From Escherichia coli (GTDB taxonomy: Bacteria; Pseudomonadota; Gammaproteobacteria; Enterobacterales; Enterobacteriaceae): a stretch of 64,000 bases of DNA. Shown one piece after another: positions 5,346 through 22,787 of this stretch. A model generated the notes under the pieces. The model made no database searches and was not told the DNA's origin. It worked only from the letters and a program-made list of their open reading frames with translations. The stretch lies in the NCBI RefSeq assembly GCF_046105845.1, contig NZ_CP151004.1; one strand, 5' to 3'. Position 1 is the stretch's first letter. Each line of letters begins with the position of its first letter. A program made the position numbers and the translations under genes.

Positions 5346-5409
5346 TGCTTCAGGGCCCCAGTAAAGGGGCCCTGCTATCAATTTGTCATTTGTATTACGC
5401 GAAAATTAT

Positions 5410-6390
5410 ATGAACGCAATAATATCGCCCGATTATTACTATGTTCTTACCGTTGCTGGTCAGTCTAATGCCATGGCGTATGGCGAAGGACTGCCATTAC
5501 CGGACAGGGAAGATGCGCCTCATTCCAGAATTAAACAATTAGCGAGATTTGCGCATACGCATCCCGGAGGCCCGTCATGTCACTTTAACGACATTATTCC
5601 ACTGACTCACTGCCCACACGATGTTCAGGATATGCAGGGTTATCACCATCCTCTGGCAACGAATCATCAAACACAGTACGGCACCGTTGGCCAGGCACTG
5701 CATATTGCACGGAAATTACTGCCCTTTATTCCTGATAACGCAGGGGTTCTCATCGTTCCGTGTTGCCGTGGCGGATCGGCTTTTACCGCGGGCAGCGAAG
5801 GGACATATTCAGAACGGCACGGAGCCAGCCATGATGCTTGTCGTTGGGGAACGGATACTCCGCTATACCAGGATTTAGTCAGCAGAACGCGAGCCGCACT
5901 GGCAAAAAATCCGCAGAACAAATTCCTCGGCGTATGCTGGATGCAAGGCGAATTTGACTTAATGACCAGTGACTACGCGTCACACCCTCAACACTTTAAT
6001 CATATGGTTGAAGCCTTTCGTAGGGAGCTAAAACAATACCATTCTCAGCTTAATAATATTACTGACGCACCGTGGTTTTGCGGCGATACCACCTGGTACT
6101 GGAAAGAAAATTTCCCTCATGCGTATGAAGCTATTTATGGCAATTATCAAAATAATGTTTTAGCCAATATTATTTTCGTCGACTTCCAGCAACAAGGTGC
6201 AAGAGGACTGACGAACGCGCCTGATGAAGATCCAGACGATTTAAGCACGGGATATTACGGTTCAGCGTACCGGTCACCGGAGAACTGGACGACGGTACTG
6301 CGAAGCAGTCATTTCAGCGCGGCAGCCCGTCGGGGGATTATTTCTGACAGGTTTGTAGAAGCAATTTTGCAGTTTTGGCGCGAAAGGTGA
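5410..6390 (+). CDS. nanS: 9-O-acetyl-N-acetylneuraminate esterase NanS (326 aa)
   Basis: Start at MNAIISPDYYYVLTVAGQSNA with GQSN esterase motif; synteny with nanC and nanM. Confidence 0.88.
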   Translation: MNAIISPDYYYVLTVAGQSNAMAYGEGLPLPDREDAPHSRIKQLARFAHTHPGGPSCHFNDIIPLTHCPHDVQDMQGYHHPLATNHQTQYGTVGQALHIARKLLPFIPDNAGVLIVPCCRGGSAFTAGSEGTYSERHGASHDACRWGTDTPLYQDLVSRTRAALAKNPQNKFLGVCWMQGEFDLMTSDYASHPQHFNHMVEAFRRELKQYHSQLNNITDAPWFCGDTTWYWKENFPHAYEAIYGNYQNNVLANIIFVDFQQQGARGLTNAPDEDPDDLSTGYYGSAYRSPENWTTVLRSSHFSAAARRGIISDRFVEAILQFWRER

Positions 6391-6601
6391 GCGTTCATTA
6401 ATTTGATTTATTTGCATCCATTAGCGCTTTTAACTGCTCCGGCGTAAACGGTGGTTTGCGTCGGTGCAGCATCGCATGGCAATTAGGGCACACAGGAAGT
6501 AAAAAAACAAATGAGATCAAGGTAATATATCTTCACTTGCAGGCTTGAACAGCAGAAAATTTGCGAGCATGATCGCAATTATTTCACTGCCAGGGATATC
6601 A

Positions 6602-7474
6602 ATGGCTTCCAGTAAATCGCTACAGCAGGCAATTGCCAACATAAAAATCTGGCACAAGGGTGAACAGCGCGCGCCGCATAAGCCATTGTTATTGCTATAC
6701 GTATTAGCGGGATACCTGCATGGACATCCGCGCCTTTTCGATTATGGCTCGGAAATCTACGAACCTCTGCACAGTTTACTGGAACGTTTTGGGCCACAGC
6801 GTTCACAGTACCGACCTGATATGCCGTTCTGGCGATTACAAGGCGACGGATTCTGGCAATTACACAATGCCGAGCTTTGCTCAACAGCAGGGAGCAGCCG
6901 ACAACCGCCAGTGAAGGAACTGAACGAATACCACGTTGCAGGCGGTTTCGATGAACAGCACTACGCCCTGGTAACCGGCAATAAAAAACTCATCAATACT
7001 CTGGCGCAACAGATACTCGAAGCGCACTTCACCGAGAGTATTCAGGAAGAAATTGCTGACGAGCTGGGTTTTGATCTCCAGCAAATCCGTAAACAGCGCG
7101 ACCCGTTATTTCGCAAAAATGTATTACGCGCTTATAACTACCAGTGCGCGATATGTGGCTTTAATATGCGCCACGACGACACCACCGTCGCGCTTGAAGC
7201 GGCGCATATAAAATGGAAACAGCACGGCGGTCCTTGTGAAATTCCTAATGGCCTGGCGCTTTGCGCAATTCACCATAAAGCCTTTGATAAAGGATCGATT
7301 GGCCTGGATGAAAATATGCGGGTACTGGTCTCGGATGCGGTAAACGGCGGAGGGATCGTTGAGAAACTATTCTGGGATTTTGACGGGAAAACTATTGCGT
7401 TACCACAGGTGCGTAAAAATTACCCTTTTGAGGGGTTTGTAGAGTGGCATCGGAAAGAGGTTTTTAGGGGGTGA
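6602..7474 (+). CDS. HNH-endonuclease-domain protein with an uncharacterised N-terminal domain (about 290 aa)
   Basis: C-terminal CxxC...HIKW...NGLALCAIHH HNH-like motif; start chosen at ATG 6602 with an AGGGA RBS (the ORF track begins at TTG 6545). Confidence 0.65.
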   Translation: MASSKSLQQAIANIKIWHKGEQRAPHKPLLLLYVLAGYLHGHPRLFDYGSEIYEPLHSLLERFGPQRSQYRPDMPFWRLQGDGFWQLHNAELCSTAGSSRQPPVKELNEYHVAGGFDEQHYALVTGNKKLINTLAQQILEAHFTESIQEEIADELGFDLQQIRKQRDPLFRKNVLRAYNYQCAICGFNMRHDDTTVALEAAHIKWKQHGGPCEIPNGLALCAIHHKAFDKGSIGLDENMRVLVSDAVNGGGIVEKLFWDFDGKTIALPQVRKNYPFEGFVEWHRKEVFRG

Positions 7475-7784
7475 GGTAATACTTATTTTGCTGATTTAAC
7501 GTCTCTATCTGATTCAATTCGGCATCATGAACAGCCATGATATGCTTAATATGGGGCGAAGAAATTAGACCGTTATGATTGGTTTAGATTTCCGTTATTA
7601 CTTGCATTCGCTTTAGTTCCTAAAAGCCCCTGCCGTTAATGCCAGGCGCATTACGCAAAGGAGAATGATTAGTAAACAATAAGATTGAAAATCAGGAAGG
7701 CGACTCGCAATAAATCTGAAAGTCGCTTTCACATTGTTAAAATATATCCCTTACCACTCCTGTGTTGTGAACTGTTCATCACAC

Positions 7785-10700
7785 TTATAGCTGACGTTGA
7801 TCCAGACTGCTATATATCGCCTTTATTTCATTTTTTACGCCTTCGCCACGGTACACCAAAGACGTATCGTATCGTTGATATTTATCTTCTCGCGCAGCGC
7901 TGAACCAGTTAAAAGATCCAACGCACAACAACTCTTCATCCCTAATCACAATTTTGCTGTGAACGCGATTCACCAATTTTGTAGCAATGCCCATATTATT
8001 GAGCTTTTCGACTGCATCATTTAGAAGATGCAGTTTCTCCTGGCGCTTATCATCATCGATATGCGCAATATTGCAGTTTTTATCCGTTACCACGGTAATA
8101 TCAATACCTCGGGAGCGGGCCAGAGCCATTGACGTCAGAAACCCCGTTTGCTCCACTTTTTGCCAGGATAACCAGGGGGAAATAATCGTGATCTTCTGTT
8201 GAGCTGCGGCCAGAGCATTATTCAAGAATTCATCATGCTGCTCCACACCATGCAACGTTGAAATATGTGTCTGTGCGGAAATTAAATCCTGTCGTTTCTG
8301 AAACTCAAATTGCAACGCATTATTATCTGAAGCAAACAGAAATTTTGCCAATAACCCTCGTGGCGAAGATGCGGGCTGCATCTCAATAAGGTCCATATCG
8401 CCAAAGACCAGAAAACTATCCTTAGCGCGTGAGACAGCAACATTGAGGATACTGCTGTTGCTATCAAGAAACCTGCCATCTTCATGTTTTGAGTAGACTG
8501 GGGAAAAGAGAACAATCGCCCTTTCCGCACCCTGCAAGGAGTGCACAGTCCCCACTGTCAGTGAGCCCTCTTCGTCTTTGTCATTAATCTCCAGCTTACG
8601 CAATGACGTTTTGATGGCATTAACCTGCGCCGAAAATGGCGTCACAACACCAACAACTTTGTACAGAGGTTCCCCGTAATGGCGCTCTATATCATCCTTA
8701 TGTGTCGCCAGCCATGCTGCTATTGTTTCAGCTTCAAGAGGGTTATAACGGCTCCCCCCATTTGGCTTCATGCCTCGGCCATCAATATGCAGATATCCCA
8801 TTGCGGGAAAAATCGTCCCTTTTTCCATCCCTCTTTTAGGCTGCAACTTACCGTTATAGCAAAGTGAGTTACAGTAGCCGATGATGTTATTGAAACAGCG
8901 ACGATGCTCATACAGATACATTCCGCGCTCGAACTTGGGATCATACTGGTAGCGGGAGTTGAACTGGGCAACCTGCATTACGCTGCCAGATGCTGCACTT
9001 TTTCCAGACCTACACACATGGGAATATGTATTTATTAACTCTTCCTGAGTGCCACCAGAAAGAATATTCTCCTCAAGCATATTGCCCATATCAGTAACGG
9101 GTAGACAATTCCAGATTGGAGCTATTTGCTCCGTATCGCCAATCACCAGTGCTTTCTTCGCCAATGCAAAAGAGGCCGCAGCAACCTCCGGGAGTACCTG
9201 CCCTGCTTCATCGACAATCAGTAAATCGGCAAAGTTATATAAATAATTATTATCCGATGTTCTGTCCCCACCAAAAGATTTTCTCCTGTTCATATGGTAA
9301 GGCAACATGTAGCAGGTCATTACCACACAAGGAGTAAGTTTCATTCTTCTTAGCCAACGAGCCTCGGCGATAGTTGTCCCGGTAATTCCTTTTTCTTTTT
9401 GCAGGTTATCAATTGCCGCCATATCCATCAGCCAGCGACCTTCCCAATAATGAGTCGCTAACAAGAACGCTGGAAAACGAATCTGAGTATCGGCAAGCTC
9501 GTCCGCTCCGGCGAGGTTCAGCTCATCGTCTCCCCTGTAGCCCAGAGCATAAGTCAACCCGCGCCATTGTTTTGCTGCTTCCATTTCGCTTCGGGCTATG
9601 TCCTGCGCAAAGTTGATATTCTGTTGGCACGCCGCCTGCTCTTGTTGCGCTTTAGCGATCAAACTATCGATAAATTTATCAATATCTTCGGAACAATTTC
9701 CCTGGAACGCTGTCATTCTTGCGCCGAACGTAGAGTCCAGGAAGAGGTTAATCTGGTAATGGCGTTTAGCACGAACAGCAGGGAGCCATGACAAAAATGC
9801 ATACATAAGCGACTCATCGGCACGGTATTGCTGCCACTGCTTTTTACCTCTGGCTAAAAGTGAAATTTCGTTGCCAATATTGAGAAGAAGTGTGTTTTTG
9901 TCCTGAAGATACTGGTCGAGATTCTCACTGATGACTCGCTGTTCATGGCGGATATCATTGAGTCTGCGCCATGCAGGTTCGATTTGCTGAAGTTGCATAA
10001 CCTGTGAAGTTAAACGTTCATGCAAAAGCGTCACTACATGCTCTGGCGAATTGCACTCTCCAGCTCCAAACGCCGCCTCCGCTTTTTCAAGGTAAAAGGC
10101 CCGGGCTTTTTCCAGATATTCCAGGGATTCAACGCGGTTAAAAAAATCTTCAGTCTGGTATTTCTTCGCTGCCTCAACCTGACGGCTTTTAGACGGAAAA
10201 TAAGCGCCATAGCTTATTACTTCCGGCAACCAACGCCCAGACATTACGCCAAAACCAGTAGAGAAATCTTTTCCAAAGGCTTCAATAATATTGGTGACGG
10301 CCTGATTGTTAGTCGATGTGGCAATAATTACAGGAGGTTCAGTTTGATTAAGTGCGGCTCTTGTCCATTCGGTGGCAATAATAGAAAGCACCAGCGTAGT
10401 TTTACCCGTTCCCGGAGGACCGTTGACAGCGAGCATATCACCCTGCTGTTGAGTCAGATAATGGCTCAGGGCATCGCGCTGCGCCACTGCCAGCGGAAAC
10501 TTATCGCCGGAATGCCCCAGACGTTCGCAGAACATCGCATTCTTAGCGAGAAGTGGCTCCACTGGAGCCATTTCGTTTGAGGCAAAACGCGTTAATAGCG
10601 GAACCTTAACCTGGCTCATCAGAAGATGGTCATACATAGGCAGGATATGAACGCTGGCCCCTACATGCTGGCTAGCTTTAACAATATAACCGTATCCAGC

Positions 10701-11300
10701 CCGTTCGTATGGCTCAGATGTAGCGACCCAATTTCCAGCGACGTTTCTTAAAAGGTTATCTGACTGTTGTAGATAATTTTGCCAATGCTGACGATACCTG
10801 GCATGGCGTTCCGCTTTCTCTTCGTCAGTTTCTTCGTAATGTTCTGGTTCATCTTCATTAATGGTGGCTGTGTTATGCGTGGTTTTGTATTTGTCATATT
10901 GCGCCAACTCACCAATAGAAAAATGACCGGAAGGGAGAGGTTCAAGCAGATCGCGGGGAATAGTGGCTGAAGCGGCAGGAAACAAAAAACCTTCCCTATT
11001 CAGAAGAGCGGAGGTAACCAGTGGCGTGATAATTGCGGGTGCACCTGCCATTTGCTCTTTGCCATGCTTTACTATGCGGTTCCACACTTGGGGCCGTAAC
11101 ACGACTTCAACGGTTTTTACCGACTCCCCTTCACCGTCAAAAAATGCCCGAATAGTCTCGTCATCCAACTGCCCTGCGGTGATATTTATCCATCGAATGA
11201 ATGAATCTGTATCTTTACGTGAAAACGTTCCTTTACCAGATTCGGCGTCAGCTAAGGAGTTGCGCCAGTATGAAGTGAATCCCAATGTATTGCTGTCCAT
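7785..11300 (-). CDS. SF1 (Upf1-like) helicase fused to a C-terminal PLD-family HKD nuclease; Mokosh type II-like architecture
   Basis: Walker A GPPGTGKT (about 10397-10421), Walker B LIVDEAGQ, helicase motif [13 protein letters not shown]-terminal HSKIVIRD...GSFNW (HxKxxxxD...GSxN, near 7960); start taken at MDSNTLGF (11300). Confidence 0.8.
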
Positions 11301-11592
11301 TTTCCATTCCGTGACATAATAGAAATCATTGATTTCATTGATGTAAATATTACTTATGATTAAACATTGTCCACGATGCGAGCACGATCGCAATAAATAT
11401 TGTGCCTGGAGGATGGATTAGATTTTCTGAAAGAGCCGAATCCTTAATAGATAAGCGCAAACATACTTGGTTCGGTATTCTTAAGGGAATTAATATGGAT
11501 TGAACCAGGTGGAAAAAACAGCGGAAAAGATTTGTGTAGCGCGGATTTCAGGCATAAAAAAAGACCTCAGTTGAGGTCTATTTACATACTTT

Positions 11593-11610
11593 TGGTGCCG
11601 AAGGCCGGAC
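11593..11610. repeat. 18-bp direct repeat of the leuX 3' end; distal att-like boundary of the leuX island
   Basis: TGGTGCCGAAGGCCGGAC is identical to the reverse-complemented 3' end of the tRNA at 22703-22720. Confidence 0.7.
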
Positions 11611-11776
11611 CCGAATTTCACACCTAATAGACTGATATCAATATTGTTTATAAACAGGAATGAATAGTTATACCCGAACTTGTACCCACACGTTAAAATC
11701 CGTACAAAAAAATAGACATTGCAAGTGGGTATAAAGCCATACCAGTAGAACACCGATTTGGCTGTCAAAGCAAGAC

Positions 11777-13352
<1,576 letters not shown>

Positions 13353-13927: not shown

Positions 13928-15718
13928 GTGGAATCGATTACCAAACTTTACCAGACCCCGCTGCCATCTACCCGTACTGGCCCTTTGTATAATGCGTTCT
14001 CATATCCAACAAAGATTTCACCAGAAGCTATAGCGGTTTACATTGCTACGCACACCGAGCCCGGTGCAACAGTGTTAGACGCATTTGCTGGTAGTGGTAC
14101 CACAGGCTTAGCCACTCTGCTCTGTGACCGCCCTACACTCGAAATGAAGCGAATGGCGGAAAGCCTCGGCGCATCGCCAAAGTGGGGACCACGTAATGCA
14201 CAACTTTTTGACATTGGAACATTAGGGTCATTCGTATCTCAGACCATGTGCAATCCTCCTGATCCTGACGAATTTGCAGATGCAGTGAAGGAGCTATGTA
14301 AACAAGCTGAGTTACAATTGGGTTGGTTATACAGTATTAAAGATGCCAATGGCCAAGTAGGCATGCTCCGCCATGCTATTTGGTCTGATGTACTAATCTG
14401 CCCTAACTGTAATACTGAGACCTCACTTTGGGATGCCAGTGTGAAAACTAATCCCATCAAAATGGCTGATTCTTTCATTTGTAAGGGTTGCCAGAAGCTC
14501 GTATCTATTGAAGCTTGTGAAAGAGCCACAGAGACAATCTCTGATGTTTTCGGAAGTACACAGTGCACCAAAAAACGAGTGTTAGCTCGCGTGCATGGAC
14601 GTTGCGGAACAACAAAGTGGCAGAGGCCTCCAACTGATGAAGACTATGAGATTTTGGCTCGCATTGCCGAAATGCAGCCTCCAACATCAGCCCCAAACGT
14701 TGAAATTGAATGGGGAGAACTAAGACGCTCAGGCTATCATTTTGGGATAGATAAGCTCCATCATTTCTATACAAAGCGTAATTTCATTGCGATGGCTTTA
14801 CTAATGGAGCTAGTCAATAACTTTAATGAAAGCGTTCGAGAGGCCTTGCGGCTTCTTGTCCTTAGCTACAATGCGAGCCATTCGACACTCATGACTCGTG
14901 TAGTGCTAAAAAAAGGACAAAATGACTTTGTACTTACGGGCGCTCAAAGTGGCGTGCTCTACATCAGCGGATTTCCAGTTGAAAAAAATCTTATAGAGGG
15001 TATTCGTCGCAAATCTAATTCGTTCATAAACTCGTTCCGGCTTTTATACGGTAGTCAAAGTCAGGTAACTGTTCATAATGTTAGCAGTGAAACTATGCCA
15101 CTCAAGGACAATTCCGTGGATTACGCTTTCACTGACCCTCCTTTCGGCGATTATATCCCATACGCTGAGCTCAATCAGCTCAATGAGCTTTGGCTAGGGC
15201 GTTCCACTGATCGTAAACGTGAAGTCATTGTGAGCCCTTCTCAAGCTAAGGGAGTGAAAGAATACGGCAGTATGATGGGTACAGTATTCAAAGAAATGTC
15301 TAGGGTACTGAAGCATGACGCATTAGCTACCGTAGTATTTCACTCCGCACATTCGGAGATATGGAGAGCTCTAGTTCAAGCTTATACCGAAGCAGGATTC
15401 GCAGTGGAAGCAACAAGCGTACTTGATAAAATTCAGGCAAGTTTTAAACAAGTAGTTTCGAATGTTTCTGTTAAGGGTGACCCTCTATTATTGTTATCTA
15501 AGCGCAGCCAAGAACGTTCAGAGTCTAAGACTTGTGATTTAATCGCCGCTGAGATAATCAATAATGCTAAAAATGATTTGAAACCCGATCCACAGCGTCT
15601 CTATTCACAATTTGTGGGAAGATGTCTCGAGCTGGGCAGCAACGTTACTATGGATGCAAAAACCTTTTATGCACTTGCTCAAACCAACGGTTTATGTGTT
15701 AAAGGAACCAATACGTGA
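13928..15718 (+). CDS. DNA methyltransferase-like protein (N4/N6 beta-class-like core with permuted motif order and a Cys4 zinc-ribbon insert), 596 aa
   Basis: SAM motif I VLDAFAGSGTTG at residues 48-60, preceded by a YPTK context; CPNC...CKGC cysteine cluster; motif IV FTDPPFGDY at residues 401-409 (about 15134); GTG start; stop overlaps the next gene. Confidence 0.8.
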   Translation: MESITKLYQTPLPSTRTGPLYNAFSYPTKISPEAIAVYIATHTEPGATVLDAFAGSGTTGLATLLCDRPTLEMKRMAESLGASPKWGPRNAQLFDIGTLGSFVSQTMCNPPDPDEFADAVKELCKQAELQLGWLYSIKDANGQVGMLRHAIWSDVLICPNCNTETSLWDASVKTNPIKMADSFICKGCQKLVSIEACERATETISDVFGSTQCTKKRVLARVHGRCGTTKWQRPPTDEDYEILARIAEMQPPTSAPNVEIEWGELRRSGYHFGIDKLHHFYTKRNFIAMALLMELVNNFNESVREALRLLVLSYNASHSTLMTRVVLKKGQNDFVLTGAQSGVLYISGFPVEKNLIEGIRRKSNSFINSFRLLYGSQSQVTVHNVSSETMPLKDNSVDYAFTDPPFGDYIPYAELNQLNELWLGRSTDRKREVIVSPSQAKGVKEYGSMMGTVFKEMSRVLKHDALATVVFHSAHSEIWRALVQAYTEAGFAVEATSVLDKIQASFKQVVSNVSVKGDPLLLLSKRSQERSESKTCDLIAAEIINNAKNDLKPDPQRLYSQFVGRCLELGSNVTMDAKTFYALAQTNGLCVKGTNT

Positions 15719-17763
15719 TGAGTAAGCATGATGATAATCATATCGAGATTAGCTGCCCTATAGACTTTGAACGGCGAAAACGGCTGGGGCAGTACTTCAC
15801 GGGTACCGGCCTTGGTCGTTTGCTTGCAGCCCTTGCTCAAGCCGAAAAGGCTGACAGCATCATAGATCCTATGGTGGGATCTGGAGACCTACTTGCCTCT
15901 TGTATAGAGATTGATGCTAAACCTGCTGTAATGGCAGGTATCGAGATAGATATGAAAGTACATAAGGCTTGTTCAAAGCGATTGCCACATGCACATTGTT
16001 TACTTGGTAATGCTTTCGATCCCAGGGTTATTGCACAGTTGCCCGTAAAATCATGGGATTTAGTAATCGCAAATCCCCCTTATGTTCGCTATCAATCCCT
16101 TCGGGATAAAGATCACAATTCAAGCGCATTTCCTTCCGCAATGCAAATTCGAAAAATGTTGCTTCGATCGTTAGAGTTGATAGATACACTCGATAAAGAA
16201 GATAAGCGACTTTTTGCCGAACTCATCCACGGTTATTCTGGTCTATCCGATTTGGCAGTGCCTGCATGGATTCTCTGCGCTGCTTTGGTTGAGAAAGGAG
16301 GACGTTTAGCTCTAATTGTACCTGAGTCGTGGCTTAGCCGAGACTATGCAACAATAGTGAATTACCTTCTGTTTAGATGGTTCGACATAGAATTTGTTGT
16401 AGAGGACGAACATGCGTCATGGTTTGAAGAAGCTCAGATCAAGACAACATTGATCATCGCCAAGAGAATTCAACGTCGCTCTTCCAAACTCTCAATTCCT
16501 GCTGAATATCACTATTGTCACATAGCACTTGCAGCCGCAGCAGCTAACAACAGAAGTCCTATAGGTGGTATTAACTTACCGGTAAAAGAGGCTGAAAAGC
16601 TCTTCGCAAAACAGGCTCAAATCTGGCTCCGAGATGCGTCTAAACATGAAACGGGCCTTGTTAGCACTCGTCCAATTTCTCTAAATCACTCTTGCAAAAA
16701 TATGATCGCGTCAGCTTCCCGCCAAAAGTGGTTTGCCACTATGAGTAAAGCTGATGATGTTTTCAGCAACGAAGACTATATACCTCATGAGATCCACGAA
16801 TGGATTAAAAGGAATACACTTACCCCTTCGTTCGATAGTTTTGAATCTATAGGCATCGCTGTTGGCCAAGGACTTAGGACAGGTGCTAATAATTTTTTTT
16901 ACGCTAGCGGAGAATTAAAAGACGGACACGTCGAGCTATCTTTTTTAGGCCCGTTATCAGGATTGAAAGCTAGAAGCTCAATCAACATCGTTAAGCCCAC
17001 ATTACGCCGCCAATCAGAGCTGCCTAATGGTTTTGTAATTTCTCCTTCTGATGCCAAAAGTTGGACGTTAGACTTAAGAAACTATGTACTGCCCGAAGAT
17101 ATTGGCGATAATGATATATCTTGCACATCATATGAGCTTATGCCAAATGAACTTGTTAAGGTCGTTAGAGCTGCACAAGAAGCAAACTTTGGCACAAGCG
17201 AGAGGCCGCTAAAAATTTGGGAGCTGACGGCGGTCGCACCTAATATCCGACCTGCAACACCTCAGACTCCCGCTCGTCATTGGTATATGTTGCCAAATTT
17301 TACACCTCGCCATCAACCAGATGTATTCTTAGCACGTGTAAATACGCTAACCCCTAAGGCTTATCTAAATCAAGATAGAGCATGCCTTATCGATGCTAAT
17401 TTTTCGACAATGTGGTTATTAGATGATTCAAAATGGTCAGCAACTACAATCCTCGCTTTTATGAATTCTACATGGGTTCAAGCTGTAATCGAGTGTCTGG
17501 GGTCGGTTATGGGCGGCGGGGCGTTGAAAGTTGAGGCCACTCACCTACGCAAAATTCCTGTTCCAAAGTTTAATGATGAGCAAAGAAAAATTCTTTCCGA
17601 TCTTGGAAAAAAACTTGTAAAAGGCACACAGGAAAAACTAGTTATTTTAGAGATAGATAGGATAATAGCTGAAGCTTTGGGCTGTAATGACATGAATATT
17701 GATGAACTTAAACAGATTACGCATTTAGGTCAAACTCGGCGGGCTAAACACAAAGGAAGGTAG
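15715..17763 (+). CDS. N6-adenine DNA methyltransferase, gamma-class (Eco57I/TaqI-like) with a C-terminal TaqI_C-like domain, about 682 aa
   Basis: GQYFTG (motif X), DPMVGSGDLL (motif I), NPPYV (motif IV, about 16072), GLRTGANNFFY (TaqI_C-like GxxTGxNxxF); start overlaps the upstream stop (GTGATGA). Confidence 0.8.
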   Translation: MMSKHDDNHIEISCPIDFERRKRLGQYFTGTGLGRLLAALAQAEKADSIIDPMVGSGDLLASCIEIDAKPAVMAGIEIDMKVHKACSKRLPHAHCLLGNAFDPRVIAQLPVKSWDLVIANPPYVRYQSLRDKDHNSSAFPSAMQIRKMLLRSLELIDTLDKEDKRLFAELIHGYSGLSDLAVPAWILCAALVEKGGRLALIVPESWLSRDYATIVNYLLFRWFDIEFVVEDEHASWFEEAQIKTTLIIAKRIQRRSSKLSIPAEYHYCHIALAAAAANNRSPIGGINLPVKEAEKLFAKQAQIWLRDASKHETGLVSTRPISLNHSCKNMIASASRQKWFATMSKADDVFSNEDYIPHEIHEWIKRNTLTPSFDSFESIGIAVGQGLRTGANNFFYASGELKDGHVELSFLGPLSGLKARSSINIVKPTLRRQSELPNGFVISPSDAKSWTLDLRNYVLPEDIGDNDISCTSYELMPNELVKVVRAAQEANFGTSERPLKIWELTAVAPNIRPATPQTPARHWYMLPNFTPRHQPDVFLARVNTLTPKAYLNQDRACLIDANFSTMWLLDDSKWSATTILAFMNSTWVQAVIECLGSVMGGGALKVEATHLRKIPVPKFNDEQRKILSDLGKKLVKGTQEKLVILEIDRIIAEALGCNDMNIDELKQITHLGQTRRAKHKGR

Positions 17764-17772
17764 CAGAATTTT

Positions 17773-20700
17773 ATGGGAACAATTTACAATGAAACTCAAG
17801 GCTTAGCATTTCTGAAAGAAGCTGTAGCACTTATGGCTGATGGAAAAGCTGAGGATGTTCTGCGACATGCGCTATCTGCCAAACTGCCGCTCATGTTCCC
17901 TAAACAGCCATGGTGGATAAAAGCACATGTTACAGGTACAGAGTCGCTTGCTAAATTTCATGAATTTGGTTCGAAAAAGTATGGATTCGTGGATGTATTA
18001 GTAGGTTCAACTGTTATTGAATATGAAAGAAATTTACAAACACAGGGTTCATTCACACATGGGCTCCATCAGTTAAAACAATATTGTGCTTCTCTTCTTA
18101 ACAGCCACACGCCTTCAGATCTTTTAGTTGGGGTACTATCAGACACGATTCGCTGGTATGCCTTTCGTGTTTCAGACGTAAAAGATATTTCGGCTGTTCC
18201 CGGTGCGACAAGCTACGGCCCTGAACATATTGATTTAGCTGAAATTGAATCCTATGACCTGTCGGCAGCTGGGAGCATTGAGGCCAAAAAGCTTGGTAAA
18301 TTCTTGGTTCGATATCTGGGCCGAGAAGGTGGACGAACTTTAGCAGCATCCATGCTAGCAAAGGATTTAGGCTTTGAAAGCTCATTTTGCGAAACACATC
18401 TCCAGCAAATAGAAAAACTAGTTGATGTAGCTTTTGTAAGCGATCCATCCTACGCTGGGTTAATCACCAAACTCTGGATGGATTTTGTTTCTTACTTGGG
18501 TGGTGAATCTGCTACAGGTAAATTTGATAAAACTTCATATATTGGAGAATTGTACATATTAACGTTAGCCAAGCTTATTTGCGCTAACGTACTTAGCGGT
18601 AAAGGACTTGTTAGCGACGATACGGAACTATTATCAATTCTAGATGGTACATTTTTCAAAGCGAAAGGACTTCCGAATCTTGTAGAATACGACTACTTCG
18701 GTTGGCTTAATAATAGCCCTTATGTTTCCCCCCTTGCCAAAGTAGCACGCGACATTCAGAACGATCTATTAGCTTATGACTTTGAGTCTGCTCCAGCTGA
18801 AGACCTATTTGGTTCTCTAATGGCTCAGCTTGCAACACGCGCTCAACGTCTTCTCCTCGGTCAAGAATGGACACCAGCATGGCTAGCTGCGAAAGTAGTA
18901 AATGAAGCCATCAACAAACTGCCATTAAACCAGCAACCAAGATTCATCGATATGTGTTGCGGTTCAGGCACTATAGTTGTGGAGACAGTAAAAGCGGTCC
19001 AACAACGGTTACTTGCAGCAGGCTCTAAGCCAGGAGAACCTGCTGCGTTAAGCTCATTAGCCACTGCAATTACGGCTTTCGATATAGATCCGCTCGCCGT
19101 AATGTTAGCAAAAGTGGGCTGGGTACTGGCTTGCAAGGACTGGCTTATACCTGGCCATGAAGCCTTAATTCCTGTGTATCACGCAGACTCACTATTTGCC
19201 AATACTCCGGTCACCAAGGTGTTTAGTACAACAGGCGAAGAGCAACGCAAGCTAAAGCTTGACACAGAAGAGGTTGACCTACCACAATTTTTGGTCGAAT
19301 CGAAACATCAATCTCTATTTGATGCACTTTTATCACGTGGTTATGATATGGCCATGAGTAGTGCTGCAGAAGCCAAATCAACGTTAAATAATGATGATAT
19401 TGAGATAATGGTTGATTCGGTAGCTTTGCATTTAGACTGTGTGCTGTCAGCTGAAGAACGCACATCTACATTATTCTTTTGCTGCCAACTGTTACGCGCA
19501 CTTGAAGCATTGCAACGTGCTGGTCGAAACGGCATTTGGTCATTCGTTCTGAAAAATAGCTTTCGCCCAGCCTTAGTGGCGGGCCGTTTTAATGGAATTG
19601 TTACTAACCCACCATGGCTATCGCTAAGCCGCATTGGTAGCAACCCTTATCGTAATGCGTTAAAAGCAAAAGCGGATAAATATGGAATTAAGCCATCTGG
19701 CGCTTCACACCTGCATGTTGAAATCGCGACGACCTTCTTGCTACATGCTATCGATCATTATCTTACATCAGATGGGGTTGTTGCATGTATCTTACCCGAA
19801 ACAGTTCTGAACGGTTCTCATCATGAACCATTCCGGTCATCCAAGTATCTATCAGCTAATAGTCCAGCAGCATTCAATCCACAAGAAATTTGGAAAGTGG
19901 CCAGCCAAACATTTAAAAATGAGGCCATTGTTCTATTCGGTTATAAATCTAAGCCAACATTTCCAGTAGTAAGCCTCTTGGGCCGAAAAGTTAGCAGTTC
20001 ATTTGAAGAATTCTGCGAGTTTCACATCGTTAATTCTGGAGGGAAGTCTGCTTGGGCATTAGACCGCCCTGTAACAGAAGTGTTGAAAGTGGAAACTAAA
20101 GATTCAATTGGACCTCTGTTTAGACAAGGAGCCGATATAATGCCCCGCGGAATTATTTTTCATGATATCAAAAAAAACGGAATATCATGGGATCTTGGTC
20201 CCATTCATCCCGGCTCATCACTATATTTTTTGCGTTCTGAGGGTAAAATTCTTAAGGACTTTTCTTTAAGCGCCTGTGGGGTGAACGATGGAGTGATATA
20301 TGATGTGCTTCTTTCAAAACATTTAGCCCCTTGGGAATTATCTGTAGGTTCAAAGGCCTTATTACCATTCCAGCGTAGTGACGATAAGTGGCTCGCTCGT
20401 ACTGGATCAAATATTGCAGCCCTAGGAGCTTCTACTGCCTCAGCAATCAAAGCTATGTTGACGGCAACCGGTGAAAACATAGAAGATTTCTTTTTACGAA
20501 TCGATACTGATCGCAAGAAATTAACCACCCAGAGTTGGAGCTCAGAAGACTGGGTTGTATTCGGGTCTGCTGGAGGTAAATGGCCATGCGCCGCTTACAC
20601 ACGCGGAGAGCAGATTCCCTGCTCTAAAACGATAATAGACCAAACGCTCTATTGGGGCGTAGTCAAAAGTGAGGATGAAGCGATATACATTACTGCACTA

Positions 20701-21018
20701 ATTAATAGTCCTGCGGTAATGAATGTGATTGTATCCCATCAACCTAGAGGATCCTTTGGGGAACGACACATACACAAGTTGGCTTTCGACCGGACACCTT
20801 CTTATGACCAAACCTCAGCTAAACATCTCGACGTTGTTCGCTCGGCGAAGGATTTGATGAATCAGTGGGCTAATCGTCGCATGGAAGCTGACATATCTCC
20901 CATGCTATCTCCTAGTGTTCACTTAATTACTCGCAGAAAAAAGATTCGTAATGCATTAGAGTCATTGCCTGCATGGGAGCCGTACGTGGCAGCCACTCAA
21001 GCTATATATGAAATTTAA
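17773..21018 (+). CDS. Large multidomain protein (1081 aa): HsdR/MmeI-like N-terminal domain, central gamma-class SAM-methyltransferase core, large C-terminal domain; Type IIG/IIL-like
   Basis: N-terminal D74...E83-x-E85...Q100xxxY104 pattern; GQEWTPAW (motif X-like); FIDMCCGSGT (motif I, about 18943); DIDPLAVMLAKV; NPPW (motif IV, about 19606); RBS AAGGAAGG upstream of ATG 17773. Confidence 0.8.
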   Translation: MGTIYNETQGLAFLKEAVALMADGKAEDVLRHALSAKLPLMFPKQPWWIKAHVTGTESLAKFHEFGSKKYGFVDVLVGSTVIEYERNLQTQGSFTHGLHQLKQYCASLLNSHTPSDLLVGVLSDTIRWYAFRVSDVKDISAVPGATSYGPEHIDLAEIESYDLSAAGSIEAKKLGKFLVRYLGREGGRTLAASMLAKDLGFESSFCETHLQQIEKLVDVAFVSDPSYAGLITKLWMDFVSYLGGESATGKFDKTSYIGELYILTLAKLICANVLSGKGLVSDDTELLSILDGTFFKAKGLPNLVEYDYFGWLNNSPYVSPLAKVARDIQNDLLAYDFESAPAEDLFGSLMAQLATRAQRLLLGQEWTPAWLAAKVVNEAINKLPLNQQPRFIDMCCGSGTIVVETVKAVQQRLLAAGSKPGEPAALSSLATAITAFDIDPLAVMLAKVGWVLACKDWLIPGHEALIPVYHADSLFANTPVTKVFSTTGEEQRKLKLDTEEVDLPQFLVESKHQSLFDALLSRGYDMAMSSAAEAKSTLNNDDIEIMVDSVALHLDCVLSAEERTSTLFFCCQLLRALEALQRAGRNGIWSFVLKNSFRPALVAGRFNGIVTNPPWLSLSRIGSNPYRNALKAKADKYGIKPSGASHLHVEIATTFLLHAIDHYLTSDGVVACILPETVLNGSHHEPFRSSKYLSANSPAAFNPQEIWKVASQTFKNEAIVLFGYKSKPTFPVVSLLGRKVSSSFEEFCEFHIVNSGGKSAWALDRPVTEVLKVETKDSIGPLFRQGADIMPRGIIFHDIKKNGISWDLGPIHPGSSLYFLRSEGKILKDFSLSACGVNDGVIYDVLLSKHLAPWELSVGSKALLPFQRSDDKWLARTGSNIAALGASTASAIKAMLTATGENIEDFFLRIDTDRKKLTTQSWSSEDWVVFGSAGGKWPCAAYTRGEQIPCSKTIIDQTLYWGVVKSEDEAIYITALINSPAVMNVIVSHQPRGSFGERHIHKLAFDRTPSYDQTSAKHLDVVRSAKDLMNQWANRRMEADISPMLSPSVHLITRRKKIRNALESLPAWEPYVAATQAIYEI

Positions 21019-21266: not shown

Positions 21267-22512
21267 CTACCCAAACTCAAACGGACTTACTCCTTTCTCC
21301 CGATTCGCATCAAGGTAATCAGCCCACCACTGCAGCATCAACCTCCTCTCCCCCAGATGCTCCGCCTTATGGATGTAGGCAGCCCTAGCAGAGCTACGCT
21401 CCTGATGGCTCATCTGCCGCGACACCGCATTCCTCGACCACAATCCCGATTCAATCAATGAGCTACACGCCATCGTTCTGAAACCATGTCCACATACTTC
21501 CGTTTTCGTGTCATAGCCCATCACTCGCAGAGCCTTGTTAACCGTATTCTCACTCATCGGCTTACGCGGATCGTGATTACCAACGGAGATCAGCTCTCGG
21601 TTTCCATTCATGCTTTTGATCTTTTCCAAAATAGCTAAGGCCTGACGCGACAAGGGAACAAGATGTGGAGTCCTCATCTTCGAACCACGTTGAGAATGCT
21701 TAACACCTTCCAGCGGTTCACGCTCTCCCGGAATCGTCCACATAGCCGTTTTAAAAATCCACTTCTGACCAGCGAGCAAAACGCAACTCGCTTGAACGGA
21801 TGAAAACCAGCAAAGTGAGTTCAACCGCCAGTCGTGTTAACGGCCTGCCAGAATAGTGATCAATGCGGTGAAGTAATTCAGTAATACGGTTAAGTTCCAG
21901 AGCTGCACGGTGCTGTCGTTTTGCCGTAGCAACCGCACCGGCAATCTCTTGTGCTGGGTTATAATCGATTAAGCCGCTCTGAACGGCAAACCGCATAATC
22001 GCAGTAGTTCGCTGTTGCAAACGAGCCGCAACTTCTAGTCGTCCGGAAGATTCCACCGCTTTGACGGGTACAAGAAGATCCCACGTCTTCAATTCAGCAA
22101 TGTTCCGCTTACCGATAGTAGTAAAGAGATTATCTTCGAAACTTTTCAATACACGAGCGCTATGCGATGCAGACCACTTCTGATTGCTGGCGTGCCAGTC
22201 TCTGGCAACCACTTCAAACGTTATCGCCTCTTGATCCTGCTCTATTTTAACTGCTTTCTTGTTCTCACTGGGAGCGACGCCATTAGCTAACAATTTACGG
22301 GCTTCATCCCGGCGTGTCCGGGCATCTGCCAGCGACTCTTGAGGGTATTTCCCCAGCGCCAGTATCTTCTCGTTGCCACCAAAGCGGTAACGTAGACTCC
22401 AGTATTTTGAATCGTTAGGGTGAACCAGCAACACCATGCCTTCGCCATCAGCCAGCTTATAGACTTTTATTTCAGGCTGGGCAGCACGAACCTTCACATA
22501 ACTAAGAGCCAT
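21267..22512 (-). pseudogene. P4-type (tyrosine recombinase) integrase next to leuX, reading frame split by a frameshift
   Basis: Two overlapping ORFs (22512-21751 and 21824-21267) together give an integrase of about 415 aa (N-terminal MALSYVKVRAAQ..., C-terminal catalytic region GHGFRTM...); overlap at 21751-21824. Confidence 0.7.
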
Positions 22513-22702
22513 GATGAGTGTCCTTTCAAAGGTTCTGTGTGGTACAAACATTATCGAACCGGGATATACCCACAGTTGTACCCACATCAGTAAGTTGATG
22601 TAGATTGAATTAGGTTGAGTGAAAAAGTGAGGAAGGCATTGCGGATACTGGATTTCAGACACAAAAAAAGCCGCCCTTGAGCGACTCGATTTGCATACGA
22701 TG

Positions 22703-22787
22703 TGGTGCCGAAGGCCGGACTCGAACCGGCACGTATTTCTACGGTTGATTTTGAATCAACTGCGTCTACCGATTTCGCCACTTCGGC
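22703..22787 (-). tRNA. leuX: tRNA-Leu (CAA), leuX
   Basis: Reverse complement reads GCCGAAGTGGCGAAATCGGTAGACGCAGTTGATTCAAAATCAACCGTAGAAATACGTGCCGGTTCGAGTCCGGCCTTCGGCACCA: cloverleaf with long variable arm, CAA anticodon, CCA end. Confidence 0.95.

What the first reader, a model, noticed from the sequence alone, without database searches (positions are those of the whole stretch)
6602..7474. Stand-alone HNH nuclease with an uncharacterised Trp-rich N-terminal domain, convergent with the helicase-PLD gene
The C-terminal third carries an HNH-type motif (CAICGF...AHIKW...NGLALCAIHH). The N-terminal ~170 residues (for example HKPLLLLYVLAGY, FWRLQGDGFW) have no motif I can assign. Size and layout (sensor-like N-domain plus HNH) resemble modification-dependent Type IV enzymes such as McrA-like proteins, but this is conjecture. 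The gene is inserted directly after nanS in a region that differs from K-12.
Basis: partly seen in the sequence, partly recalled or inferred. Interest (0 to 1): 0.6.

Follow-up and report, generated by a model that had tools for sequence, protein, structure and literature searches.

The report
Known phosphorothioate-dependent restriction enzyme (EcoWI-type)
This gene encodes a well-known kind of restriction enzyme that cuts foreign DNA carrying sulfur in its backbone; it is 98% identical to the matching E. coli W gene, the presumed source of the characterised enzyme EcoWI, so it is real but ordinary.

Summary
The ORF at 6602-7474 (+), 290 aa, is real and intact. Its N-terminal domain is already characterised. 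It is the DNA sulfur-binding domain (SBD) first solved in ScoMcrA. This rests on a sequence match to PDB 5ZMO (E=6e-8) and on a fold match of a pLDDT 95.6 AlphaFold model (TM 0.78 to 5ZMO, 0.70-0.75 to SprMcrA SBD). Homologues carry Pfam PF26340 DNA-SBD_ScoMcrA. The C-terminal part is a zinc-ribbon HNH nuclease (Pfam HNH_2). The whole protein scores 438 bits against NCBIfam NF045808, 'phosphorothioated DNA-binding restriction endonuclease' (cut-off 180). It is 98% identical to the E. coli W gene at the same nanS locus, which is presumably EcoWI. EcoWI is the published Mg2+-dependent enzyme that cuts GpsAAC/GpsTTC at N7/N6 and restricts dnd+ plasmids. Three details are wrong: 'uncharacterised', 'Trp-rich' and 'inserted relative to K-12'. 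K-12 carries a decayed remnant of the same gene at that spot. About 31% of complete E. coli genomes hold at least 80% of the gene. Already known; low interest. One side observation: the remnant of a divergent ScoMcrA_N-HNH partner gene lies just upstream.

The parts
6602..7474 (+). CDS of the SBD-HNH phosphorothioate-dependent restriction endonuclease (290 aa plus stop), an EcoWI-type allele
   Evidence: ORF and translation. NCBIfam NF045808 at 438 bits against a cut-off of 180, covering profile positions 2-284 of 284. 284/290 identical to E. coli W WP_000168572.1 and 287/290 to WP_024009496.1.
6592..6596 (+). Shine-Dalgarno-like AGGGA, 5 nt before ATG 6602
   Evidence: Read directly from the sequence. 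Not tested further.
6614..7081 (+). DNA sulfur-binding domain (SBD), about residues 5-160. Pocket residues are H26, K27, M74, P75 and R78. The putative base-contact loop is around residues 96-102.
   Evidence: phmmer to ScoMcrA SBD 5ZMO, E=6e-8, residues 5-142. AlphaFold model pLDDT 95.6. Foldseek gives 5ZMO TMt 0.78 over 157 columns, SprMcrA SBD 0.70-0.75 and Hga SBD 0.66. P75 is invariant; H26, K27, P28, F76 and W85 are at least 90% conserved in 105 diverse homologues. PF26340 DNA-SBD_ScoMcrA is recorded on the orthologues.
7109..7471 (+). Zinc-ribbon HNH nuclease domain, about residues 170-290. Catalytic H202, N216, H224/H225; zinc ligands C182-x-x-C185 and C221-x-x-H224.
   Evidence: Pfam HNH_2, residues 182-236, E=1e-9. 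TagI 6GHS E=9e-6. C182, H202, N216 and H224 are invariant; C185, C221 and H225 are at least 90% conserved. The published EcoWI alignment describes CxxC and CxxH zinc sites and H-N-H residues (PMC7461809 supplement).
6398..6502 (-). Remnant (last 34 codons plus stop) of a divergently transcribed 216-aa ScoMcrA_N-HNH endonuclease gene. The rest was removed by a 583-bp deletion whose junction lies at about 6493/6494.
   Evidence: Alignment with strain TUM1886. Translation ...LLPVCPNCHAMLHRRKPPFTPEQLKALMDANKSN*. tblastn aa 183-216 at 97% identity. The same remnant is present in E. coli W.

Best explanation
The gene encodes a stand-alone, modification-dependent restriction endonuclease of the SBD-HNH class. 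It is an allele of the EcoWI type. The proposed mechanism has five steps.

1. The N-terminal sulfur-binding domain reads the Rp sulfur of a phosphorothioate (PT) link in double-stranded DNA. The sulfur sits in a small non-polar surface pocket. Its floor is P75 and its walls are H26, the K27 methylenes and M74. K27 makes the salt bridge.

2. A neighbouring loop (about residues 96-102) and backbone contacts restrict binding to a short sequence context. The loop is identical to that of the E. coli W protein, so the expected context is GpsAAC/GpsTTC.

3. The protein probably acts as a dimer.

4. The C-terminal zinc-ribbon HNH domain (H202, N216, H224) then cuts both strands a few base pairs to one side. 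For EcoWI this is N7/N6, leaving a 1-nt 3' overhang, with Mg2+.

5. In the cell this destroys incoming DNA made in Dnd+ hosts (PT-modified phages and plasmids). The host's own unmodified DNA is spared, so no cognate methylase or immunity gene is needed.

Shown here: the domain identities, the fold, conservation of the pocket and catalytic residues, family membership, and near-identity to the E. coli W orthologue. Taken from the literature: the pocket chemistry (ScoMcrA, SprMcrA) and the enzymology and in vivo restriction (EcoWI). Inferred: that this allele keeps EcoWI's activity and specificity, and that EcoWI is the E. coli W ORF.
For: - NCBIfam NF045808 at 438 bits against a cut-off of 180, full length.
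- Sequence match of residues 5-142 to the ScoMcrA SBD crystal structures 5ZMO/5ZMN/5ZMM, and of the HNH to TagI.
- A high-confidence model (pLDDT 95.6, pTM 0.89) whose best PDB matches are all SBD-PT-DNA complexes: 5ZMO TMt 0.78, then 7CC9/7CCD/7CCJ and 8H0L. Next come the HNH domains of the modification-dependent enzymes TagI, VcaM4I and EcoKMcrA.
- P75, C182, H202, N216 and H224 are invariant, and H26, K27, P28, F76, W85, C185, C221 and H225 are at least 90% conserved, in 105 homologues of 33-61% identity.
- These positions correspond to ScoMcrA H116, R117 (Lys in most homologues) and P165, which mutagenesis showed to be essential for PT binding (PMC6224610).
- 284/290 identity to the E. coli W protein at the same locus. 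None of the six differences falls at a conserved position or in the 96-102 loop.
- The E. coli W protein is 290 aa and 33.3 kDa. The published EcoWI size is 33.4 kDa. The published EcoWI motif KPzzLL...PF-L-W is present.
- EcoWI alone, cloned in pACYC184, abolishes transformation by GpsAAC-modified dnd+ plasmids (PMC7461809).
- The neighbours of the gene vary between strains and genera (YjhR, McrBC-like genes, T6SS genes, toxin-antitoxin genes), which fits a self-sufficient one-gene system.
Against: - There is no assay on this allele.
- The 'lid' tyrosine of the ScoMcrA pocket (Y164) is Met here. Across the alignment the position is Y in 56, L in 10 and M in 6 of 105 sequences. The E. coli W protein has the same Met.
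- The texts I could read give no accession number for EcoWI. Equating it with the E. coli W ORF rests on the REBASE-style name, the size, the motifs and the distribution.
- A 583-bp deletion ends about 108 bp upstream of the start codon and might affect the promoter. E. coli W carries the same 34-codon remnant of the upstream gene.
- The promoter scan found no consensus sigma-70 site upstream.
- Whether the host genome carries a dnd cluster elsewhere cannot be seen from a 64-kb window.
Confidence: 0.9

Rival explanations
1. The gene is an intact-looking but functionally silent relic. It would be unexpressed, or inactive on PT-DNA, and on the way to the pseudogene state seen in K-12.
For: The locus decays often. 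4872 of 5426 complete E. coli genomes have at least a fragment, but only 1706 have at least 80% of the gene. K-12 and ESBL_DR28 carry truncated copies. The upstream partner gene is already deleted in the window. No consensus promoter was found.
Against: The reading frame is complete and every invariant family position is kept. Identity to other full-length alleles is 97-99% with no frameshift. E. coli W, the presumed source of active EcoWI, carries the same remnant of the upstream gene.
Confidence: 0.07
2. It is a base-modification (5mC, 5hmC or 6mA) dependent Type IV enzyme like EcoKMcrA, TagI or VcaM4I. The N-domain would read a modified base rather than the backbone.
For: The HNH domain is closest to those of TagI and VcaM4I. 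ScoMcrA itself also cuts 5mC/5hmC DNA, but it does so through a separate SRA domain (PMC7461809).
Against: No SRA, PUA, EVE or YTH domain was detected by Pfam or by fold search. The whole N-terminal 160 residues are accounted for by the SBD fold. EcoKMcrA gave no sequence hit at E<=10. EcoWI showed only low nicking on Dcm+ pBR322 in Mg2+ buffer, whereas it cut dnd+ plasmid.
Confidence: 0.02
3. In its native form it is one half of a two-gene system with the divergent ScoMcrA_N-HNH gene. It would be crippled, or changed in behaviour, in this window because that partner is deleted.
For: The divergent pair is intact in E. coli TUM1886 and N1420. It is also intact at an unrelated locus in Citrobacter farmeri, where the partner is 70% identical. 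The partner's N-terminus matches the head domain of ScoMcrA (5ZMM, E=2.5e-5).
Against: The partner is missing or broken in E. coli W, in three Salmonella contigs and in some Citrobacter, while the SBD-HNH gene stays intact. EcoWI expressed alone restricts PT plasmids and forms a homodimer.
Confidence: 0.05

Closest known systems
EcoWI (SBD-HNH phosphorothioate-dependent restriction endonuclease; Lutz et al. 2020, PMC7461809; used for EcoWI-seq, PMC9521924)
   Same: Same architecture, same length and the same chromosomal locus. 98% identical to the E. coli W orthologue. The motifs KPzzLL...PF-L-W, CxxC/CxxH and H-N-H are all present. The putative base-contact loop is identical.
   Different: There are six substitutions relative to the E. 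coli W protein: H40N, G156R, H208Q, K255R, F275Y and G277V (window residue first). None is at a conserved position. Downstream, the neighbour here is YjhR/MkoC; in E. coli W it is a McrBC-like pair. That EcoWI is the E. coli W ORF is inferred, not documented in the texts I could read.
ScoMcrA (Streptomyces coelicolor; PDB 5ZMM/5ZMN/5ZMO; PMC6224610)
   Same: The SBD is homologous (E=6e-8; fold TM 0.78), with the His-Lys/Arg...Pro sulfur pocket. There is a C-terminal HNH. It restricts PT-DNA.
   Different: ScoMcrA is 561 aa and has an extra N-terminal head domain and an SRA domain that reads 5mC/5hmC. It cuts at variable distance, prefers GpsGCC, and is reported as non-specific in Mn2+ buffer. 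The window protein has only SBD plus HNH. It has Met where ScoMcrA has Tyr164, and about 20% identity over the SBD.
SprMcrA (Streptomyces pristinaespiralis; SBD structures 7CC9/7CCD/7CCJ; PMC7470945)
   Same: The same two-domain SBD-HNH layout and the same SBD fold (TM 0.70-0.75).
   Different: About 18-20% identity in the fold-search alignment. SprMcrA is Mn2+-dependent, has weak activity and an H-N-R catalytic variant, and cuts at variable distances of N11-13/N10-12. The window protein has the canonical H-N-H.
EcoKMcrA (E. coli K-12 McrA, PDB 6GHC), with TagI (6GHS) and VcaM4I (6YEX)
   Same: Modification-dependent enzymes with a reader domain in front of an HNH nuclease of similar size.
   Different: Their reader domains recognise modified cytosines. 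TagI's reader is described as an SRA domain, VcaM4I's as PUA-type and McrA's as a fold of its own; these domain types are from my own knowledge and were not tested here. None of these readers is related to the SBD. EcoKMcrA is not detectable by sequence.

Membership tests
NCBIfam NF045808 PT-DNA_restrict (phosphorothioated DNA-binding restriction endonuclease) | Whole-protein HMM score above the curated cut-off (180 bits) with full-length coverage | tested here: met
   438.2 bits, E=1e-131, protein residues 6-289 on profile positions 2-284 of 284
SBD-HNH PT-dependent restriction endonucleases (EcoWI / SprMcrA class) | N-terminal domain with the ScoMcrA sulfur-binding-domain fold | tested here: met
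   phmmer to 5ZMO, E=6e-8. AlphaFold model pLDDT 95.6. Foldseek top 8 hits are all SBD structures; TMt 0.78 and rmsd 3.0 over 157 columns to 5ZMO. PF26340 DNA-SBD_ScoMcrA is recorded on the orthologues.
SBD-HNH PT-dependent restriction endonucleases (EcoWI / SprMcrA class) | Sulfur-pocket residues equivalent to ScoMcrA H116, R117(K), Y164, P165 | tested here: inconclusive
   H26, K27 and P75 are present. Across 105 homologues P75 is invariant and H26 and K27 are at least 95% conserved. The Y164 equivalent is M74 (Y in 56, L in 10, M in 6 of 105). The E. coli W protein has the same Met, so this is probably tolerated, but I did not test that.
SBD-HNH PT-dependent restriction endonucleases (EcoWI / SprMcrA class) | C-terminal HNH nuclease with catalytic His-Asn-His and CxxC/CxxH zinc sites | tested here: met
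   Pfam HNH_2, E=1e-9. H202, N216, H224 and C182 are invariant; C185, C221 and H225 are at least 90% conserved.
SBD-HNH PT-dependent restriction endonucleases (EcoWI / SprMcrA class) | Preferential cleavage of Rp-phosphorothioate DNA and restriction of dnd+ DNA in vivo | not testable with these tools
   Shown for EcoWI in PMC7461809. For this allele it is only inferred, from 98% identity to the presumed source gene.
SBD-HNH PT-dependent restriction endonucleases (EcoWI / SprMcrA class) | No cognate dndABCDE modification cluster alongside (fewer than 3.6% of family members have one nearby) | tested here: inconclusive
   Neighbours within about 15 kb are nanCMS, YjhR/MkoC, IS3, methyltransferases, an integrase remnant and leuX. 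No dnd genes are among them. The rest of the genome is not visible.
EcoWI itself (same enzyme, allelic) | Near-identity to the protein that was characterised | tested here: inconclusive
   284/290 identical to the only such gene seen at this locus in E. coli W. No accession number for EcoWI was found in the papers or the supplement. The link rests on the name, 33.3 against 33.4 kDa, and the motifs.
EcoKMcrA family (E. coli McrA) | McrA-type N-terminal 5mC-reading domain | tested here: not met
   No sequence match to 6GHC even at E<=10. The fold match to 6GHC is weak overall (TM 0.27, E=4e-4).
SRA/PUA/EVE/YTH-HNH modified-base readers (TagI, VcaM4I and similar) | An SRA or PUA-superfamily reader domain | tested here: not met
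   Pfam finds only HNH_2. The sequence match to TagI covers only the HNH part, query residues 170-249. The fold matches to TagI and VcaM4I are weak overall (TM about 0.3). The N-terminal 160 residues match the SBD.

The most novel reading that the evidence does not exclude
The ancestral unit at this locus may be a two-gene cassette and not a single gene. It would consist of a ScoMcrA_N(head)-HNH gene and an SBD-HNH gene, divergently transcribed. Together they look like ScoMcrA split into two polypeptides. The pair moves as a unit between E. coli and Citrobacter. The head-HNH partner might add a second specificity or modulate the SBD-HNH enzyme. The window, like E. coli W, would then hold a reduced, partner-less version whose behaviour differs from the complete cassette.
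Probability: 0.15. Interest if true: 0.35.

Novelty: already known. Interest (0 to 1): 0.1.

Why it matters
It matters little as a discovery. The domain, the family, the mechanism and a near-identical E. coli enzyme have been published since 2018-2020, and NCBI's pipeline already gives the gene its specific name.

The result is still useful as annotation. It shows that this strain carries an apparently intact anti-phosphorothioate restriction gene. The gene sits in the nanS-leuX defence island, next to an intact Mokosh type II gene (YjhR) and a methyltransferase/Type IIG-like cluster. It also shows that K-12's unannotated nanS-yjhR gap holds the dead remnant of the same gene.

In practice, such a strain should resist transformation or infection by DNA prepared in Dnd+ hosts such as E. 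coli B7A or Salmonella Cerro 87.

Tried and rejected
- Pfam-A scan of the protein found only HNH_2. The SBD family PF26340 seems to be missing from that Pfam copy. The domain was recovered through PDB sequence search, NCBIfam, the precomputed Pfam on homologues, and the fold search.
- I looked for an accession number or sequence for EcoWI in PMC7461809 (main text and supplement), PMC9521924, PMC10602919 and PMC12707154, and searched the library for WP_000168572. Nothing was found, so the EcoWI = E. coli W ORF link stays an inference.
- I asked whether the 'E. coli SBD homolog' of Liu et al. 2018 is this protein. I rejected that: its critical proline is P482, so it is a much longer protein.
- I considered a functional operon or partnership with the convergent YjhR helicase-PLD gene and rejected it. 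YjhR matches the stand-alone Mokosh type II model MkoC over its full length. E. coli W has McrBC-like genes in that position instead. Orthologues in Salmonella and Citrobacter have unrelated neighbours.
- The promoter/terminator scan of 6300-7900 gave nothing above the shuffled expectation.
- The 'insertion relative to K-12' reading is rejected.

Full report
OBSERVATION

The + strand carries an ORF that ends at 7474. An AGGGA Shine-Dalgarno-like element lies 5 nt upstream. RefSeq uses the same 873-bp CDS in other strains. Homologues from other taxa begin to align at residues 4-10, so ATG 6602 is the better start, not the upstream TTG 6545.

Pfam finds an HNH_2 domain at residues 182-236, E=1e-9. 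The gene follows nanS and is convergent with a 1202-aa helicase gene at 7785-11393(-).

The label 'Trp-rich' does not hold. There are 6 Trp in 290 residues and 3 in the first 170. The Trp that are present (W77, W85) are conserved core residues of the domain (PMC6224610).

WHAT IT IS

The protein scores 438 bits, full length, against NCBIfam NF045808 'phosphorothioated DNA-binding restriction endonuclease', whose cut-off is 180. Residues 5-142 match the sulfur-binding domain (SBD) of ScoMcrA in three crystal structures (5ZMO, E=6e-8). The C-terminal part matches the HNH of TagI. The SprMcrA SBD appears at E about 5e-3. E. coli K-12 McrA does not appear even at E<=10.

I collected diverse relatives from the 50%-clustered library. 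6594 representatives had E<=1e-3 and 500 had E<=1e-30, most of them 280-320 aa and matching end to end. I aligned 104 of them with the query (33-61% identity) and predicted the structure, which gave pLDDT 95.6 and pTM 0.89.

Foldseek against the PDB returns the SBD-PT-DNA complexes first. 5ZMO has TMt 0.78 and rmsd 3.0 over 157 columns. The SprMcrA SBD has TMt 0.70-0.75 and the Hga SBD 0.66. After these come the modification-dependent HNH enzymes TagI, VcaM4I and EcoKMcrA, each with a low overall TM of about 0.3. No SRA, PUA, EVE or YTH structure appears except as part of these HNH enzymes. Orthologues in the protein collection carry the precomputed Pfam pair PF26340 DNA-SBD_ScoMcrA plus PF13391 HNH_2.

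RESIDUES

In the 105-sequence alignment P75, C182, H202, G210, N216, H224, G231 and W282 are invariant. A24, P25, H26, K27, P28, L29, L30, L32, F76, L79, W85, C185, C221, H225 and D229 are at least 90% conserved.

From the pairwise alignment with ScoMcrA, H26, K27 and P75 correspond to H116, R117 and P165. In ScoMcrA these form the non-polar sulfur pocket and the salt bridge. P165N and R117A/G abolish PT-DNA binding, and Lys replaces R117 in most homologues (PMC6224610). The lid residue Y164 corresponds to M74 here. The family mostly has Tyr at this position (56 of 105) but also Leu, Phe and Met. The HNH carries H202, N216 and H224 plus the CxxC (182-185) and CxxH (221-224) zinc sites, as described for EcoWI and its homologues.

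RELATION TO EcoWI

E. coli W has a 290-aa gene (WP_000168572.1) at the same nanS-proximal position, annotated with the same name. The window protein is 284/290 identical to it and 287/290 identical to WP_024009496.1 of strain TUM1886. The six differences from the W protein are H40N, G156R, H208Q, K255R, F275Y and G277V. None is at a conserved position, and none is in the loop (about 96-102) that aligns with ScoMcrA's base-contacting S187-R191 loop.

EcoWI is the SBD-HNH enzyme characterised by Lutz et al. 2020. Its published properties are as follows (PMC7461809):
- It depends on Mg2+ and is a dimer in solution.
- It recognises GpsAAC/GpsTTC and cuts at N7/N6, leaving a 1-nt 3' overhang.
- It is active on fully and hemi-modified sites and is stimulated by two sites.
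- Expressed alone from pACYC184, it abolishes transformation by GpsAAC-modified dnd+ plasmids.

It is now a reagent for mapping PT sites (PMC9521924).

I could not find an accession number for EcoWI in any text available to me. Equating EcoWI with the E. coli W ORF is therefore an inference. It rests on the REBASE-style name, the size (33.3 kDa computed, against 33.4 kDa published), the published motif KPzzLL...PF-L-W, and the published distribution of close homologues in E. coli, Salmonella, Klebsiella, Enterobacter and Citrobacter. That distribution matches what I found. The family assignment does not depend on this inference.

LOCUS AND DISTRIBUTION

Of 5426 complete E. coli genomes, 1706 (31%) hold at least 80% of the gene; the sampled rows show 97-99% identity. 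4872 hold at least a fragment, nearly always on the chromosome.

K-12 MG1655 has a remnant covering aa 8-88, with a frameshift and an in-frame stop, in the unannotated gap between the yjhR pseudogene and nanS. The 3' two-thirds of the gene, including the HNH, are deleted. So the gene is an old resident of this locus that has decayed repeatedly. It is not an insertion peculiar to this strain.

The window's surroundings are a variable, defence-rich stretch that ends at tRNA-Leu(CAA) leuX (22703-22787). It contains:
- YjhR, which matches PADLOC MkoC (Mokosh type II) over its full length with 1471 bits.
- An IS3 transposase gene.
- Two DNA methyltransferases and a 1081-aa Type IIG-like protein.
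- A decayed integrase.

No dnd genes are in view.

The gene's neighbours differ between strains and genera. E. coli W has McrBC-like genes, Citrobacter has T6SS genes, and Salmonella has toxin-antitoxin and integrase genes. Together with EcoWI's activity when cloned alone, this argues that the gene is a self-contained one-gene system with no functional tie to the convergent helicase.

SIDE OBSERVATION

Directly upstream, on the minus strand (6398-6502), lie the last 34 codons of another HNH gene. Compared with strains TUM1886 and N1420, a 583-bp deletion has removed the rest. The intact 216-aa protein (WP_024009497.1) has an N-terminus matching the head domain of ScoMcrA (5ZMM residues 29-93, E=2.5e-5) and an EcoKMcrA-like HNH.

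The same divergent pair occurs at an unrelated locus in Citrobacter farmeri. There the partner is 70% identical and carries Pfam ScoMcrA_N plus HNH. It is frameshifted in one Citrobacter contig and absent in another and in three Salmonella contigs. E. coli W carries the same 34-codon remnant as the window.

So the two genes seem to travel as a cassette that resembles a split ScoMcrA, but the partner is evidently dispensable for keeping the SBD-HNH gene. I did not establish whether this pairing has been described or has a function.

VERDICT

The thing itself is already known: an EcoWI-type, SBD-HNH, phosphorothioate-dependent restriction endonuclease that NCBI's pipeline already names specifically.

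My confidence in this mechanism is about 0.9. The remaining doubt concerns whether this particular allele is expressed and active, which only an experiment can settle. Interest is low.

Noticed in passing
window 6398-6502 (-), deletion junction about 6493/6494; L001 7999-8649; L005 1416-2066; L011 4224-4859: This is the 34-codon remnant of a divergent 216-aa ScoMcrA_N(head)-HNH endonuclease gene; a 583-bp deletion removed the rest. The intact pair (head-HNH plus SBD-HNH) occurs in other E. coli strains and, at a different locus, in Citrobacter farmeri. It looks like ScoMcrA split into two genes. E. coli W has the same remnant.
   Followed up: partly
window 7785-11393 (-): The convergent 'helicase-PLD' gene is an intact YjhR of 1202 aa. 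It matches the PADLOC model MkoC (Mokosh type II) over its full length with 1471 bits. In K-12, yjhR is a truncated pseudogene.
   Followed up: partly
L012 (K-12 MG1655) 6269-6515 = NC_000913.3 4,536,268-4,536,514: The unannotated gap between the yjhR pseudogene and nanS in MG1655 holds a dead remnant of the SBD-HNH gene (aa 8-88, with a frameshift and an in-frame stop). PGAP annotates it as a pseudogene in the K-12-like strain 9FA.
   Followed up: yes
window 13928-21018 (+): Three co-oriented large genes lie here: a PglX-like DNA methyltransferase (596 aa), an N-6 DNA methylase (682 aa) and a 1081-aa protein with Type IIG restriction-methyltransferase-like regions. RefSeq annotates the last as 'hypothetical protein'. 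This may be a restriction-modification or BREX-like module. Only 2 complete E. coli genomes share at least 80% of window 7400-30000.
   Followed up: no
window 11490-13344 and 21267-22787: The first stretch holds a decayed restriction-endonuclease fragment and an IS3-family transposase (12298-13344). The second holds a frameshifted tyrosine integrase next to tRNA-Leu(CAA) leuX (22703-22787). Together they mark nanS-leuX as a decayed integrative island.
   Followed up: partly
window 6561-6578: A perfect 6-bp inverted repeat, TTGCGA-gcatga-TCGCAA, lies 24 bp upstream of the start codon and is conserved in strain TUM1886. It was flagged as terminator-like on both strands, but such sites are no more frequent here than in shuffled sequence. 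It could be an operator.
   Followed up: no
window 5383-6390 (+): The nanS ORF is full length here and runs to within 8 bp of the HNH-gene remnant. PGAP annotates nanS as 'incomplete, missing C-terminus' in several strains (TUM1886, W, 9FA) but as intact in N1420 and in K-12 MG1655. This suggests variable 3' ends or inconsistent annotation at this junction.
   Followed up: no
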